Both the position numbers and the translations under genes were made by a program. A model generated the notes under the pieces. That model saw only the letters and a program-made list of their open reading frames with translations. It searched no databases and was not told the origin of the DNA. A stretch of DNA of 63,654 bases, the filler included, from Octopus bimaculoides (taxonomy: Eukaryota), in assembly GCF_001194135.2 (NCBI RefSeq). It is 6 parts of 6 records of this genome, joined end to end, with 100 filler letters (N's around TTAATTAATTAA, not from the genome) between each part and the next. Parts side by side here need not be neighbours in the genome. Positions count along the whole stretch, not along the records: positions 1 to 30,273 come from NC_068983.1; positions 30,374 to 46,797 come from NC_068985.1; 4 more parts are not named here. The stretch is one strand, 5' to 3'. The number at the start of each line of letters is the position of its first letter. The first letter of the stretch is position 1. Shown here piece by piece: positions 4,757 to 40,603 of this stretch.

Positions 4757-5065
4757 GAGTAGATAAAATCCAAGCTACATATGTTTCATAGCTAGTAGAA
4801 CATCGGAAATCGTAATTATCCAAACGAGGAGTAATCCGCTAGCTACTCTTCCGGTCAAAGATACCTTAATCAAAAGAAGTTTGCATTTTCGATCGAATCT
4901 GATGCGAGTCAACATGGGATCCCTTGAAAACAATGTAAGCTTCTTTTGATTAATGCATCTTTTGCCCGATGAGGAGCTAGCGTATTACCCCTTGTTTGGA
5001 TAAATGCTACCTACTCTCAAGTTCTGCTAGCTATGACACGTATGCAACATGGCTTTTGTCTACTC
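4757..5065. repeat. Inverted repeat: arms about 135 bp (4757-4890, 4926-5065) with degenerate HHR-like cores
   Basis: Arms align as reverse complements at roughly 70-75% by eye. Confidence 0.8.
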
Positions 5066-5489
5066 AGTTCCCTAATTTTGGGATTTTTATTCGTACACAG
5101 AGCAACCTCTGCTGCTAAACGTAAACTATAAAACAAATTTTTCAGCTCATAAAACTTCGAAAGTGGGGAAATGTACAAACCTCTACGTCAATAAACCATT
5201 GTTGTTCCTGAAATTTGTCTTTTATACCTTCTACGGGCTGCTCGAAGCTTACTATCTTCCTACACCTTGATCCTTAGATCTGACTATCAGGATATTTCAA
5301 CCTATTATAGGGATAGTTTTATCCAAGATACTCTGGTTTAATATATATTTTGAAGAGATATTTCTTCAATAAATATACTATAAAACATTACATATTAATA
5401 AGTTTAATATATATATATATATATATATANNNNNNNNNNGAGACAGAGAGAGGGAGGGAAAGAGAGAGATGGGCTTCTTTTCAGGTTCG

Positions 5490-5585
5490 TCCACAAATTC
5501 ACTCACAAGGCTTTTGTCAGCCCGTGGAAACACTTCTACTTGGAAGTCGTTGGGAAGCAAACTTCTTACCACACAGCCACGCCTA
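5490..5585 (-). mobile_element. tRNA/CORE-type SINE (family 1), internally deleted fragment
   Basis: Matches the other in-window copies, e.g. 61585-61953. Confidence 0.75.
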
Positions 5586-8500
5586 TAAATTTGTTTAAAA
5601 GCTCATTTGCTACTTTCCAGCTCTTATACCAATTCATGTTAGAATGTTAAGAGCGAATCTTACCATTCCTAACTCTAACACAAGTTGTTATAGTTACTCC
5701 CTTCTACAGATATTTCCTTCTTTCTCTTTACGAACTCGCACACTCTGTCACACACACATATATATATATGGTCTTAAATGTTTGTGTGCTTTCATTTTCA
5801 AATTAATGAATTATATTCGTCTTGTAATTACTTGTATTAACATTTTAATTATAAGAAGTGATAAAATACTTGTGGTATTCGACACACAGTCTCCCATTTG
5901 AGAAATGAAAACATTATTTAATTTTTAGTAAATATCTGAAAGATTTCGAATTAGGAAAAATAATTTTATCTCACTTTTATAGAAAATATTTTAAATATTT
6001 GGATGATCAATGTTGATTATGTAAATGTTGGCATTACGTGTAACTACAATAGAAAAACAAAGTTCATTTAAGAATCGATTTGTTATGTTCATATTTTGAG
6101 AATATTTACTTGAAGCAAATGCCGCTAAAACCAGAGCACAAACTGAAAATGGAAGCATAAATTCTTCCAAAGCTTTTAAGTGTTAACATTTTACTAAAGA
6201 AATGCGCAGCAATTTAGAAAGTGATAATCGTTTAAATCTTGCTGATAGAATTACAGTTATACTCTTTGAAGAATGCTCTTAATATAGAAAACTAAGTTTA
6301 TTAATAGCATGCATTTGAGGTCATATTGAACTATGCCTAATGGGAAGTCGAGAATATTATTTATAAAATAACAGAGTTAAATGCTGCCTTTGAAAGCTTG
6401 GTTGAAGTGATATCTCATCTCAGACGGAAAATATACTTTTAAATGAAATGATAATTAATAATTTAAAATTCATTCAATATGCATTGTATTCTCTCATTTG
6501 TCCTCCTTTAATTTGCACGCTTTGCTTTGATTAAAAGGTAAATGTAATAAGTGATCACTTGCAACCAATCCCTTTAATTAACATGCACATAGTCTATTAT
6601 TATTTGGTTGTAAATCCAACCAGCAGATGGGTTCTAACGCAAGTAGAGGTAACGAATATTTTATCAATTTTAAAGTGGTGCAATGTTTACAGATATGAAA
6701 CGTCTCAGCAAGAGATACTTAGCTATAACTAAATGGAGTTTGTCGTAGTTAATTAAATTCCTTTACATTTAACTAGCCTTGGCTCCGGAAACACTGTACC
6801 CATGCTATATATGGATATGAACTGCAACCTCAATATTGATCCTTCAAACGTACAGCTATTTTTCTGTATATTGTATAAAACTTACAGTCTGTAAAATGCA
6901 TAAGTAGTTTAACCCATACACATTGTGTTTCTCTCCATGTAAATATTGTAGTTTATTGGTTACCTAAATAATATAATTTGTATTAGATGTAAATATTTGA
7001 CATCGAAACTTTTCGAAAGTGTGAATAAATTTACAATACTATGACCAAATATAAGTGTATTGACTTAATTTAGCGAATTGTATAACAAAAGAAGAAATTA
7101 ATGATAAAAGATAAAAGTAATTGAAGATAGCTAATAATTAAATAAACATTATCAAGTAATCAATTTTGTAGAATTAATGATCAATTATAGTTTGCTGATG
7201 GTAAAGATTAGTTTAATCGAAACACAAATAATTATGTGTCTCTGGAAACGATTTGCTGTCTATAGGATTTCCAATCGTGAATCAAGAAATATCTGTTTAT
7301 TTAGGTAGACGTTGCTCTACAGATCCCAAGTTTTCGTTATACACAATCAAAATAGACATAAAAAAAACATATATATTTAGTTTCTACTGTATGATAAATG
7401 TTATCTAGATTGAGATACAGATGAACATGATAAGTTGTTGTATTGCTTCCATTTGAGAAGAGACATATATAAACATTCTGCAAATATTTCGACGAGTGTA
7501 GAGATTATATGCAGAAATTAAGGGATTTATATTGGCTTCAAGGAAAGCTTCGAAAAGAGGGGTAATGCGCGTGGTAAATGGTTGTAACCAATAAAAAAAG
7601 GTGGAAATTAAAACAATCTCTCTTCAACCGAGTGTGCTTACAGCCTAACTAAATGTTTACAATTTTGTAAAATCGAGTAATTATTACTTCTATACAACGT
7701 TTTTAACTCTTTAAAATGTGAACTAAAACAGTCTTAGAATATACTGAGTTATATAAATGTCAACTATTTCGAAATAAATGCAGTTCACAAAAATTATTTA
7801 TTCTTTTATTAAGGATGAAGTGTAGCTAATTGCAATTTGATGTATTTATATAGCAATCTAATGAAACAAACGTGGATGTTACGATTAAAATTCGCAATTT
7901 AGCTCGCCTTCAAAGCAAAAGATGATTCATCTATACGAAATGAAACATATTTAAGAAAGTGTAATTTATAATTATCAAATGGAACATTAAAAAAATGAAA
8001 CACATGTGTGACATATTTATTAACCGAATCTCAGTTCTAAGTGAACAATTCTCCAGACGAAATTTGGTTTCACTCAATTATACAAATCCCTTTGATTTAG
8101 TTGGATTTTGAACGAGCATAACTTACAAGGTTATTTATTTCCTTTCCACACAGAGAGGAATGCATTAGATAGAGAAAGAAATGTTACCATGCATATAGTT
8201 TAGAGATTTATATAAATTGAATAACGTTTAAATATAAAATCTCTAAGGATAATTTTCCTTATTGTCAAATATTTTATTGTATTAGGATATATAATCTAAG
8301 TTGTACAGAAAATCAATATCCTCAAGAGGTAATTTTGATATACTTTCAGTTAAGTATGATTTACGATGTTGATCTATTTTGCATGGAGTTTATTTCAGTT
8401 AATTCAATTTAATTAATCTTATCTTTTATCTTCTAACAATATTAATTATTCTGAGAATTATACACATTTCTCATAAGAATCTTTAATTAGGCTTTCTTTA

Positions 8501-9244
8501 TCGGTAAAATTATGGCTGCAAAAAATAAAGCAATAAATTGAAACAATCTACGTATGCTTAGCACTCATATACACACACACCTACATGCACACATCTGCAC
8601 TTACACGTAGATATTAACTTGAATATATATGTGTGTATATCATGTACATGCACACAGACACAGCTATAGAAACACACACTCACTCACAGACACACGCTGA
8701 CTCCCCCCCCCATACACATACATATCAACTTGTAAACGAGGACATAGAGAACATGTAGCATATCTTATTTCACAAAGCTAAGTAGTGAATTACTTAATTT
8801 GTATGTATGCATGCATTTCAACTACTGCTAGAGGAACCACATTCAACATCTATTTAGTTCCTTTCCGTATGTTACTCATCAGTAGTGGCATCTGGTTCGT
8901 ATATGAGCTTAGCTTTATGCTTCTTTCAAACAAGAGAACTGATTTTTTTTTTGTTATCTAAGTATGATTTTGTTTACTAGGATAGAATTTAAAGTCAGGC
9001 AGTCGAGAATTTTGAAAATACAACTTAATCAAACTATTCATACATTTTTATGTAATCAGACGATTAAAGTTTTTAATTATTTCTCAGTGACTTCTAGGTC
9101 AATAGTTACTCTCTCTCTCTCCAGCTATTTTTATGGTACCTTTTGTGTTTTAGCGGCAGGTCAGCATTAATCGTGCAGATTAACAGTCAAAGACACATTT
9201 CATCTATAACCATCTTGTTTTGTCCTTAAGAGTATTTGATACAG

Positions 9245-9650
9245 CATGGAGTGGGATATGAATCTTGCTTCTCAACTACATGGTTCCAGGCTTAGTTCCA
9301 CTCTGTGGCACCTTGGGCAACTGCTTTCTACTATAGCTTCGGGTCAACCAACTCCTTGTGAGAAGATTTGGTAAGCGGAAACTGAAAGAAGCCCGTCGTA
9401 TATATATATACATGTGTGTGTATGTGTGTATGTGTGTATGTGTGTGACCTGTACCTCTGCTTGATAACTGGTGTGGGGGTGTTTAACTGTACGTAACTTA
9501 GCAGTTCGGCAAAAGAAATTATATGAATATGTGCCAGGCTATAAACAAATGAATCCCGGGGGTGATTTGTTCGACTAAAACCCTTCAAGGGGATACCCCA
9601 GCATGACCGCAGTTAAATGACTAAAAACCAGTAAAAGATAAAAGATAAAA
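9245..9650 (+). mobile_element. tRNA/CORE-type SINE (family 1), near full length
   Basis: Head, gcaccttgggcaa core, internal (TA/TG)n and ccagcatgaccgcagt...gtaaaaga tail. Confidence 0.85.
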
Positions 9651-39454: not shown

Positions 39455-39678
39455 AAGGCCTCTCTAAGAAATATATATATATGAAAGGGACTCTAACTTC
39501 AGTATGTGTATGTGTGTATGTGTACATATGTATATATATATATATATATATATATATATATATATATATACACACACACACACACACACACACACACACG
39601 CACACATATATATATATATACATATATACATACATACATACATACATGTATAGATAAAGATACATATGGCCAGTTTAT

Positions 39679-39736
39679 GGGTGACCCTGGGTTTCATATC
39701 CATAAAGCTCTTAGCTTTACAGCATTTATCAGACCC
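39679..39736 (-). ncRNA. Hammerhead motif, unit 2 (G8A lesion)
   Basis: gggt CUGAUAA atgct gtaaagct-aag-agctttat ggatat GAAAC ccagg GUC accc. Confidence 0.6.
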
Positions 39737-39789
39737 TAGGCCCTTGGACTCTCTAGCAAGTATATATATATGAAAGGGTCTCTAACGGT

Positions 39790-40135
39790 CTCTTTAGCCA
39801 AACCACTAAGTTACGGGGACGCAAGCACACCACAATCGGTTGTCAAGCAATATTGGGGGAGGGACAAACACAGACACACCAACATATACACACACATACA
39901 TATATATATGCATATATACAACAGGCTTCTTTCAGTTTCCATCTACCAAATCCACTCACAAGGCTTTGGTCGGCCCGAGGCTATAGTAGAAGATGCTTGC
40001 CCAAGGTGCCACNNNNNNNNNNGGTCGGCCCGAGGCTATAGTAGAAGATGCTTGCCCAAGGTGCCACACAGTGGGAATGAACCCAGAACCATGTAGTTGG
40101 TAAGCAAGCTACTTACCACACAGCCACACCTGCGT
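39790..40135 (-). mobile_element. SINE family 1 with a duplication of about 43 bp across a 10-N gap
   Basis: Matches in-window copies; the duplication is probably a contig overlap. Confidence 0.85.
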
Positions 40136-40259
40136 ATATACATTTTTTGCATTACAACTCACCATGTGGAGATAATCGAAATTCCCCCCTTCCCTTTTCT
40201 TACTATATATATATATATATATATGTACACACACACACATACACACACATACACACAGA

Positions 40260-40603
40260 TGAGAAATTGAGATGACAAAGGGAAGGACAATTATGTTATT
40301 AACTTAATTAGAATACAGCTGTTTTTGCTATAAGATGCAGTGAACTCACAGTTGAGTGCCTGAATAACACCTTATAGCTTCATTAGAGCCTCAAATATGA
40401 AGCTGGTAATGCCTTTCCCTGTATGTAATCACAAATATAATTCTTTTCCCAAATAAAGTGTGCTTCATATTCAAGGATCTGATGAAGCTATAAGATGTTA
40501 TTCAGGCACTCAAGAACGAGTCTGTTGCATTTTAAGGCAGAAACAGCTGTAAGCTAATGGAGTTCATAAGATAATCTTTTATTCTTTTGTCACCTCATTT
40601 TCT
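40260..40603. repeat. Head-to-head inverted repeat, arms about 140 bp (40260-40403, 40462-40603), each with an HHR-like motif
   Basis: Right arm: CUGAUGA 40479-40485, stem II, GAAAC 40540-40544, agct, GUA. Confidence 0.8.

What the first reader, a model, noticed from the sequence alone, without database searches (positions are those of the whole stretch)
4757..40603. A multi-family hammerhead retroelement system
Seen: about 12 HHR-like motifs in about 36 kb, from roughly seven families with unrelated stem II sequences. All are type I with short palindromic or near-palindromic stem III (ACGU, AACGUU, ACAGCUGU, ACCCAGGGU). They are arranged as SINE chimeras, tandems or inverted pairs, and four PLE RT/EN relics lie in the same window. 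Inference: this genome hosts a large population of non-autonomous PLE-dependent HHR elements, possibly producing circRNAs and dsRNA.
Basis: inference. Interest (0 to 1): 0.75.

Follow-up and report, generated by a model that had tools for sequence, protein, structure and literature searches.

The report
Penelope ribozyme ends, one tRNA-headed

Summary
Observation confirmed: 12 hammerhead arms of 7 families lie in 4744-40603. The span crosses a pack joint (two chromosomes), so it is not one locus. All 7 are dispersed repeats with a type I core and a palindromic stem III in consensus. Families B, D and F run directly on from Penelope-like (PLE) endonuclease genes. Wherever a second, inverted arm occurs it is head-to-head; B also shows a one-sided tail and target-site duplications. 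So these are mostly 5'-truncated PLE ends, a published arrangement, not a shown non-autonomous circRNA system. The 'SINE chimera' (B) is the end repeat of a Poseidon-type PLE with a built-in tRNA-like head. Of 48 head-bearing arms, 40 begin at its 5' edge, and the element's sense strand has no shared TTTT run over 2.4 kb (control PLEs: 15 in 7.3 kb; P about 0.01). That suggests Pol III transcription, which is untested. RNA reads show the sequence but no cleavage ends or circles. This scan reported both the PLE-end reading (same genome) and the tRNA-headed PLE (other genomes) before.

The parts
1009..1997 (-). PLE relic 1: broken RT/GIY-YIG coding sequence of Hydra type (outside the finding's span)
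   Evidence: HMMs built from proteins, iE 6e-48 and 5e-18
4744..4891 (-). Family A arm 1; hammerhead core at 4853 with one core change
   Evidence: 88.5% to family consensus; 1406 first-look candidates
4911..5078 (+). Family A arm 2, head-to-head partner of arm 1; core at about 4963, decayed; one-sided extension to about 5200
   Evidence: 82.7% to consensus; extension read
11072..11200 (-). Family G copy 1, decayed; family consensus has U in place of core A6
   Evidence: 10 hits in 831 kb sample
11599..11722 (-). Family G copy 2, 5'-truncated (first half of core missing)
16652..16850 (-). Family F hammerhead end (core at 16791), at the 3' end of PLE relic 2
   Evidence: 82.9% to consensus; 138 candidates; most of the DNA between it and the endonuclease end is shared with locus L124
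17500..18118 (-). PLE relic 2: broken GIY-YIG endonuclease of Hydra type, upstream of family F on the same strand
   Evidence: iE 1e-30; 361 protein relatives
28281..28494 (+). PLE relic 3: RT thumb fragment of another PLE family, not the partner of the adjacent B copy
   Evidence: 80% to P0004; differs from the B element's own thumb sequence (translations)
28606..28678 (+). tRNA-like head of family B (A box at head position 8, B box at 53); likely Pol III internal promoter
   Evidence: ARAGORN at lowered threshold calls sister copies tRNA-like in 4 loci
28679..28776 (+). (AAT)n/(AAC)n run between head and body of family B
28778..28925 (+). Family B body: start of the PLE reading frame and intact minimal hammerhead (core 28832; predicted cut after 28867)
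   Evidence: 94.6% to consensus; 2298 candidates; frame
29376..29641 (+). Second family B copy: 3' piece of head, (AAT)n, body with intact core at 29553
30274..30373 (.). Pack joint: left stretch on G000:C3, right stretch on G000:C5
38106..38318 (-). Family C copy with intact core (38255) and 11-bp stem II; one-sided extension to about 37990; short inverted stub at 38319-38335
   Evidence: 334 candidates
39367..39461 (-). Family D copy 1 (core 39450, decayed)
   Evidence: 292 candidates
39649..39760 (-). Family D copy 2 (core 39732, one core change); sister copies L082 and L098 follow a Hydra-type endonuclease
40262..40402 (-). Family E arm 1 (core 40386, decayed)
40430..40603 (+). Family E arm 2 (core 40479), head-to-head partner; one-sided extension to about 40700
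   Evidence: 1853 candidates
60235..61452 (+). PLE relic 4: broken RT (another stretch of the pack)
   Evidence: 69% to P0001

Best explanation
[quoted passage not shown] Inferred cycle: the PLE protein nicks AT-rich DNA and starts reverse transcription inside the element's RNA just past the hammerhead, at one of two sites. It usually stops early and often folds back, leaving a short end, or a head-to-head pair with a tail on one arm and a target-site duplication. The hammerhead, which would need a dimer or protein help to cut, is carried passively. In family B, transcripts that would start at the head give the many SINE-like copies, and possibly the whole coding RNA.
For: Shown: B follows RT and GIY-YIG sequence (L007); 25 of the 27 ORF-selected loci visible run on into the head (1 does not, 1 hits a gap; 3 of 30 were cut from view). 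D follows an endonuclease in L082 and L098, and F does so in the window, with L124 sharing the intervening DNA. Second arms are inverted and upstream in 30 of 78 loci of C-F and never inverted downstream. In B, 20 of 24 two-arm insertions have the tail on one arm only, and 12 of 25 inverted insertions have a duplication of 8 bp or more versus 6 of 584 mismatched flank pairs. B 3' ends cluster at body positions 144-150 and 173-177, and the tail is the start of the ORF. These features match Poseidon PAc (PMC11167929) and PLE structure in PMC8557442. For the promoter: 40 of 48 head-bearing arms not selected on the ORF begin at -8..+9 of the head and none at -15..-9 (2 of the 40 are internal deletions that continue upstream). 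No TTTT run is shared by most copies over 2389 nt, versus 15 in 7296 nt of six control PLE families (P 0.004-0.01).
Against: No coding partner was found for A, C, E or G; C touches an endonuclease only across an inverted junction in L040. Solo B copies show a duplication in only 3 of 34. At least 5 of the 32 ORF-start copies visible carry endonuclease sequence upstream of the head or body, so some templates did not start at that head. A natural 5-bp hairpin at -7..+5 could itself cause the stops, and palindromes at pLTR 5' ends are described in Adineta (PMC3846280). Phe codon choice does not differ from controls (4:11 versus 55:69, P 0.27). The TTTT test came after the idea, rests on one family, and uses small control families. 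ARAGORN at default settings (0 of 29 loci) and Rfam do not call the head a tRNA. Cleavage and polymerase were not tested.
Confidence: 0.8

Rival explanations
1. The head is a passenger: an old tRNA-SINE that landed in the PLE's 3' UTR. The element is read by Pol II, and short copies pile up at the head because the cDNA snaps back on the small hairpin there.
For: About 10 of the 48 arms show the fold-back palindrome at the head's 5' edge. Head plus (AAT)n occurs without the body in 3 of the 24 head loci displayed. Some templates run through the head. 5' palindromes are known in other PLEs (PMC3846280, passages).
Against: Most arms that begin at -5..+8 show no hairpin. This reading does not explain the lack of shared TTTT runs across the ORF.
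Confidence: 0.35
2. One reading: these are independent non-autonomous retrozymes that self-cleave, circularise and are re-inserted by PLE proteins in trans.
For: Four families have no coding partner in the loci held. Cores are less diverged than stems or flanks in A, B, D and F. Non-LTR retrozymes are proposed to derive from PLEs (bioRxiv 10.64898/2026.07.22.740005). More-than-unit B copies would fit a circular template.
Against: B, D and F are attached to coding sequence. Same-strand neighbours occur in 1 of 78 loci, whereas retrozymes are defined by tandem units (PMC7229834). Within families broken pairs far outnumber compensatory changes (21 versus 209 cells over seven families). No end pile-up at the cut site was listed.
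Confidence: 0.15
3. The motifs are chance matches in AT-rich, repeat-rich DNA.
For: Three single-copy candidates (2649, 8882, 27426) do look like chance. Rfam has no hit.
Against: Shuffled controls; consensus sequences restore the full core in six families and a one-base variant in the seventh; stems differ wholly between families yet pair.
Confidence: 0.01

Closest known systems
Penelope/Poseidon PLEs, especially PAc of Anolis carolinensis (PMC11167929; parts 1-2 of 4 read) and Pen2a_Av of Adineta (PMC3846280; passages)
   Same: RT plus C-terminal GIY-YIG; ORF starts inside the end repeat and runs through the hammerhead; two 3' end points that define a tail; inverted end repeat with target-site duplication.
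   Different: Family B's repeat begins with a tRNA-like A/B-box head and an (AAT)n run, and its sense strand lacks shared TTTT runs. The parts read of those papers mention no such head (no 'tRNA' or 'polymerase III' in the main text of PMC3846280).
Minimal hammerheads of metazoan PLEs (Cervera and de la Pena 2014, PMC4209133; parts 1-2 of 4 read)
   Same: Many sequence families per genome, an extra base after A9, palindromic stem III, mostly single motifs from truncated PLEs, opposite-strand pairs 100-700 bp apart.
   Different: I saw no octopus families in the parts read; family G has U at core position 6 in consensus.
Hydra-clade PLEs (Craig et al. 2021, PMC8557442; passages and supplement rows), including Hydra-1_Obim with its listed hammerhead
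   Same: Endonuclease type upstream of D and F (likeness by eye to supplement text, and by HMM to proteins); type I motif with palindromic stem III in an octopus.
   Different: The D and F motifs differ in sequence from the one listed for Hydra-1_Obim; the clade was not tested with a tree.
Metazoan non-LTR retrozymes (PMC7229834, passages; bioRxiv 10.64898/2026.07.22.740005, parts 1-3 of 5 read)
   Same: Short non-coding repeats with type I hammerheads related to PLE end repeats.
   Different: Those are tandem units expressed as circles; these are solo or head-to-head copies and no circle was seen.
TRIMp3 elements Cassandra, Helenus, Ajax (PMC10886601, passages) and Schistosoma hammerhead SINEs (review PMC6765202, passages)
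   Same: A small-RNA-derived Pol III promoter inside a terminal repeat, or a Pol III promoter next to a hammerhead.
   Different: Those are non-coding; the TRIMp3 paper expects autonomous partners to use Pol II. Here the head sits in a protein-coding PLE.

Membership tests
EN+ PLE, Penelope/Poseidon type (family B) | Single ORF with RT and C-terminal GIY-YIG endonuclease | tested here: met
   RVT_1 5e-14 in L302; 268 relatives, the listed ones carrying RT and PLE-type domains, one named GIY-YIG; order read in L007 and L305. This Pfam copy gave no GIY-YIG hit on the L305 piece.
EN+ PLE, Penelope/Poseidon type (family B) | Partial tandem and inverted end repeats, optional 30-40 bp tail, target-site duplication | tested here: met
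EN+ PLE, Penelope/Poseidon type (family B) | Hammerhead in the end repeat overlapping the ORF start | tested here: met
   Frame open from the ATG through the motif in 5 of 12 copies; the unrelated-source protein P0007 reads through the same motif (compared by eye)
EN+ PLE, Penelope/Poseidon type (family B) | Placement in the Poseidon clade on an RT tree | not tested
   Assigned from domain order and lack of a cysteine linker by eye; no tree was built
Hydra-clade PLE (families D, F) | Hydra-type RT/EN directly upstream of the hammerhead end | tested here: inconclusive
   Endonuclease link shown; clade name by likeness to supplement sequences only
PLE ends (families A, C, E, G) | Continuity with a PLE ORF | tested here: inconclusive
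   None found in 17, 25 and 20 loci of A, C and E; G was not searched genome-wide; head-to-head layout met for A, C, E
Type I minimal hammerhead | Conserved core, stems I and II, palindromic stem III | tested here: met
   Consensus of six families complete; G has one core change
Type I minimal hammerhead | Self-cleavage | not testable with these tools
   No pile-up of ends listed in three unstranded RNA runs, which cannot exclude it
Non-LTR retrozyme | Head-to-tail tandem units, each with a hammerhead | tested here: not met
   1 of 78 loci of C-F with a same-strand neighbour; best-hit loci only, so rare arrays are not excluded
Non-LTR retrozyme | Abundant circular RNA | not testable with these tools
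   No RNase R or stranded data; a unit circle's junction would read like genomic tandem sequence
tRNA-derived SINE (family B short copies) | tRNA-like head with A and B boxes at the 5' end | tested here: met
   Boxes at head positions 8 and 53 (box consensus recalled); 40 of 48 arms start there
tRNA-derived SINE (family B short copies) | Non-coding lineage separate from its autonomous partner | tested here: not met
   Head and body are contiguous with the PLE ORF; no separate lineage was shown
tRNA-derived SINE (family B short copies) | Transcription by RNA polymerase III | not testable with these tools
   Indirect support only

The most novel reading that the evidence does not exclude
Family B is an autonomous, protein-coding Penelope-like retrotransposon whose whole 2.9-kb RNA is made by RNA polymerase III from a captured tRNA promoter in its end repeat. 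Its ORF has been purged of Pol III terminators, and the same promoter sheds roughly 20,000 SINE-like hammerhead copies.
Probability: 0.35. Interest if true: 0.8.

Novelty: new variant of a known kind. Interest (0 to 1): 0.5.

Why it matters
The multi-family hammerhead population is an expected PLE footprint and matters mainly for annotation: about 36,000 intact-core motifs by extrapolation, invisible to Rfam. Family B matters more. If a coding retrotransposon is read by Pol III, it breaks the usual split between Pol II-driven coding elements and Pol III-driven SINEs, shows one way a SINE-like family can arise from inside its own helper, and gives a testable handle on the open questions of PLE promoters and of how an uncapped, hammerhead-interrupted RNA is translated.

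Tried and rejected
Rfam: no hit at gathering; the E-value listing was filled with microsatellite matches and 102 lower rows were not shown; no hammerhead or tRNA hit on B loci. ARAGORN: nothing in the window or in 29 head loci. Candidates 27426 and 8882 are single-copy; 2649, 15662 and the 62288 motif had no family support in the loci held; 36039 overlaps another repeat without the core. The Pfam GIY-YIG search (2390 candidates, 112 matches) did not yield partners for A-F among 30 loci. My first count of only two PLE relics was wrong; Hydra-type profiles found two more. The idea that full-length copies start at the ribozyme cut site (three copies) did not hold in the larger set. The idea that the ORF running through the hammerhead is new was dropped: it is described for PAc. 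Codon test not significant. RNA: no holder on record as RNA was listed among indexed runs; three raw RNA runs carry B sequence in both directions equally, as does a neighbouring zinc-finger region, so the libraries look unstranded and give no verdict on strand, cleavage or circles. Lunse et al. 2017 was not held; it is known here only through the review PMC6765202. The protein atlas gave no answer. The genome sample stopped at 100 stretches, so copy numbers are rough. bioRxiv supplements and Repbase/Dfam entries could not be seen and may already hold this element.
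Full report
Setting. The window is a pack of six stretches. The finding spans two of them, which lie on G000:C3 and C5; 32,236 of its bases are not N. G000 is a 2.34-Gb animal genome whose proteins match Octopus entries.

Are the motifs real? A tolerant descriptor gave 6 hits at score 10 or more in the window against a mean of 0.67 in 12 local dinucleotide shuffles. A strict one gave 4 against at most 1 in 20 shuffles. Genome searches showed six dispersed families with 1406 (A), 2298 (B), 334 (C), 292 (D), 1853 (E) and 138 (F) first-look candidates, 40 scored each. A seventh (G) came from the loci held. Alignments of 14-30 best copies restore a full type I core in A-F and a core with U at position 6 in G. 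Stems I and II are unrelated between families yet pair in each, and stem III is self-complementary. Within families there is little covariation: 21 cells with a change on both sides against 209 broken, summed over seven families. Candidates 27426 and 8882 are single-copy.

How many are there? In 100 evenly spaced 10-kb stretches (831,363 non-N bases) the strict descriptor found 17 motifs, nearly all different, against 0-4 in each of 10 shuffles (an earlier set of 5 shuffles on 80 stretches gave 0-6). That extrapolates to roughly 36,000 intact-core motifs (inference, assuming about 2 Gb non-N). Arms per family in that sample were B 8-9, G 10, A 4, E 3, C 1, F 1, D 0, so B and G are each near 20,000. 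The window's 3 credible strict hits in 57 kb are about three times the average; it is not a special locus.

What are they? A second arm, where present, is inverted and upstream: 12 of 25 loci in C, 9 of 19 in D, 4 of 20 in E, 5 of 14 in F; none is inverted downstream and 1 of the 78 has a same-strand neighbour (A's 16 of 17 is biased because the query held both arms). In B, 20 of 24 two-arm insertions carry the tail on one arm only, and 12 of 25 inverted insertions have a flanking duplication of 8 bp or more, against 6 of 584 mismatched pairs and 3 of 34 solo copies. PMC8557442 (passages) describes this layout for PLEs, and PMC4209133 (parts 1-2) describes many minimal-hammerhead families per genome, single motifs from truncated PLEs and opposite-strand pairs. 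The same 2021 paper lists a hammerhead in an octopus Hydra element (supplement row), and a squid genome paper counts 235 hammerhead loci (passage).

Links to coding sequence. F lies about 650 bp downstream of a broken endonuclease at 17500-18118, and locus L124 shares most of the DNA between them. D follows a like endonuclease in L082 and L098. B follows RT and GIY-YIG sequence in L007. The ORF piece has 2956 candidates, and 25 of 27 visible loci continue into head, (AAT)n and, in most, the hammerhead body. No partner was found for A, C, E or G. The four relics in the window are confirmed, but only the one at 17.5-18.1 kb is shown to belong to a neighbouring motif.

Family B in detail. The order is ORF end, stop, 75-nt tRNA-like head, (AAT)n, ATG, hammerhead, tail. 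The tail is the start of the ORF, the frame is open from the ATG through the motif in 5 of 12 copies, and an unrelated-source protein 55% identical in RT-EN reads through the same motif. All of this matches the anole Poseidon element, where reverse transcription starts at two sites that bound the tail and the ribozyme is protein-assisted and dispensable in vitro (PMC11167929). The head is the unusual part. It has A and B boxes at tRNA spacing (consensus recalled) and is called tRNA-like by ARAGORN only at a lowered threshold. Among 48 head-bearing arms from body-selected, head-selected and incidental loci, 40 begin at -8..+9, none at -15..-9, 7 further upstream and 1 inside. Two of the 40 are internal deletions, and arms cut within the A box are invisible to this count. 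The sense strand has no TTTT run shared by most copies over 2389 nt (35 aligned pieces; 0.36 per kb), whereas six head-less PLE families of the same genome have 15 in 7296 nt (1.3-3.9 per kb) (P 0.004-0.01). Against a simple picture, at least 5 of 32 visible ORF-start copies have endonuclease sequence upstream, so tandem or circular templates also existed, and a small hairpin at the head's edge offers a rival cause for the peak (PMC3846280).

Expression. B sequence is present in three raw RNA runs, in both directions equally, with no pile-up of ends listed at the cut site; a neighbouring zinc-finger region is also symmetric, so the libraries look unstranded. This shows presence in RNA, likely as passengers in host transcripts, and nothing about cleavage, circles or polymerase.

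Shown versus inferred. Shown: motifs, families, insertion layout, links of B, D and F to coding sequence, the 5'-end peak and the T-run deficit. Inferred: PLE origin of A, C, E and G (about 0.85), the priming and fold-back steps (from the cited papers), Pol III initiation at the head (about 0.6) and Pol III transcription of the whole element (about 0.35). Untested: cleavage, circles, dsRNA.

Novelty. Searches for a tRNA- or Pol III-headed PLE listed no paper that describes one, judged from listings and the passages read; the library lacks most subscription journals and Repbase. The nearest cases are non-coding TRIMp3 elements. This scan's earlier notes reached the PLE-end reading in this genome and the tRNA-headed PLE in other genomes. 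I had noted both readings before seeing the respective notes; they are unchecked and not independent support. Verdict: ordinary PLE debris with one unusual variant worth a bench test; interest 0.5.

Noticed in passing
window 700-775 (-): A thirteenth, decayed hammerhead-like motif (core at 769) lies about 240 bp downstream of PLE relic 1 on the same strand; probably that element's own end.
   Followed up: partly
window 62230-62300 (-): A motif with an intact core and palindromic stem III at 62288 in the last stretch; no relatives in the loci held.
   Followed up: partly
window 11072-11200; L169:5920, L177:1363: Family G, about as abundant as B, has U at core position 6 in consensus, while a related family keeps the canonical core; it may be a naturally weakened ribozyme.
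   Followed up: partly
window about 2500-4300 (+): Broken ORF1-like and apurinic-endonuclease-like sequence of a LINE, read by eye from translations.
   Followed up: no
window 12090-12963 and 45499-46538: Two Tc1/mariner-type relics: one with inverted ends at 12090-12290 and 12768-12963 (type by eye), one with HTH and DDE_3 hits.
   Followed up: no
window 15571-15654 and inverted partner within 15467-15935: An AT-rich inverted repeat, MITE-like, read.
   Followed up: no
window 29014-29230 and many places (e.g. 9249-9621, 27626-28143, 61585-61953): Other abundant tRNA-like SINEs without hammerheads; RTE-like LINE ends with (AAT)n at 30068-30273 and near 44062-45090 (by eye).
   Followed up: no
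L250:2754-3201, L257:7552-7922, L010, L358: A young B subfamily (96-98% to consensus in L250 and L257) with a short deletion before the ATG; in L250 both arms have A at the cleavage position.
   Followed up: partly
L274, L294, L296: Head plus (AAT)n without the hammerhead body, two of them inside RTE-like sequence by eye; possibly moved by a LINE that primes on (AAT)n.
   Followed up: no
L040:1877-2185: A 5'-truncated GIY-YIG endonuclease (92% to L244) joined head-to-head to a family C end; a gap hides its own 3' end, so it is a candidate partner of C.
   Followed up: partly
P0007, P0017-P0020, P0025 and others: Many protein relatives of the B element sit on contigs of 2.5-3.0 kb, about one unit long, as collapsed tandems or circles would give.
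   Followed up: no
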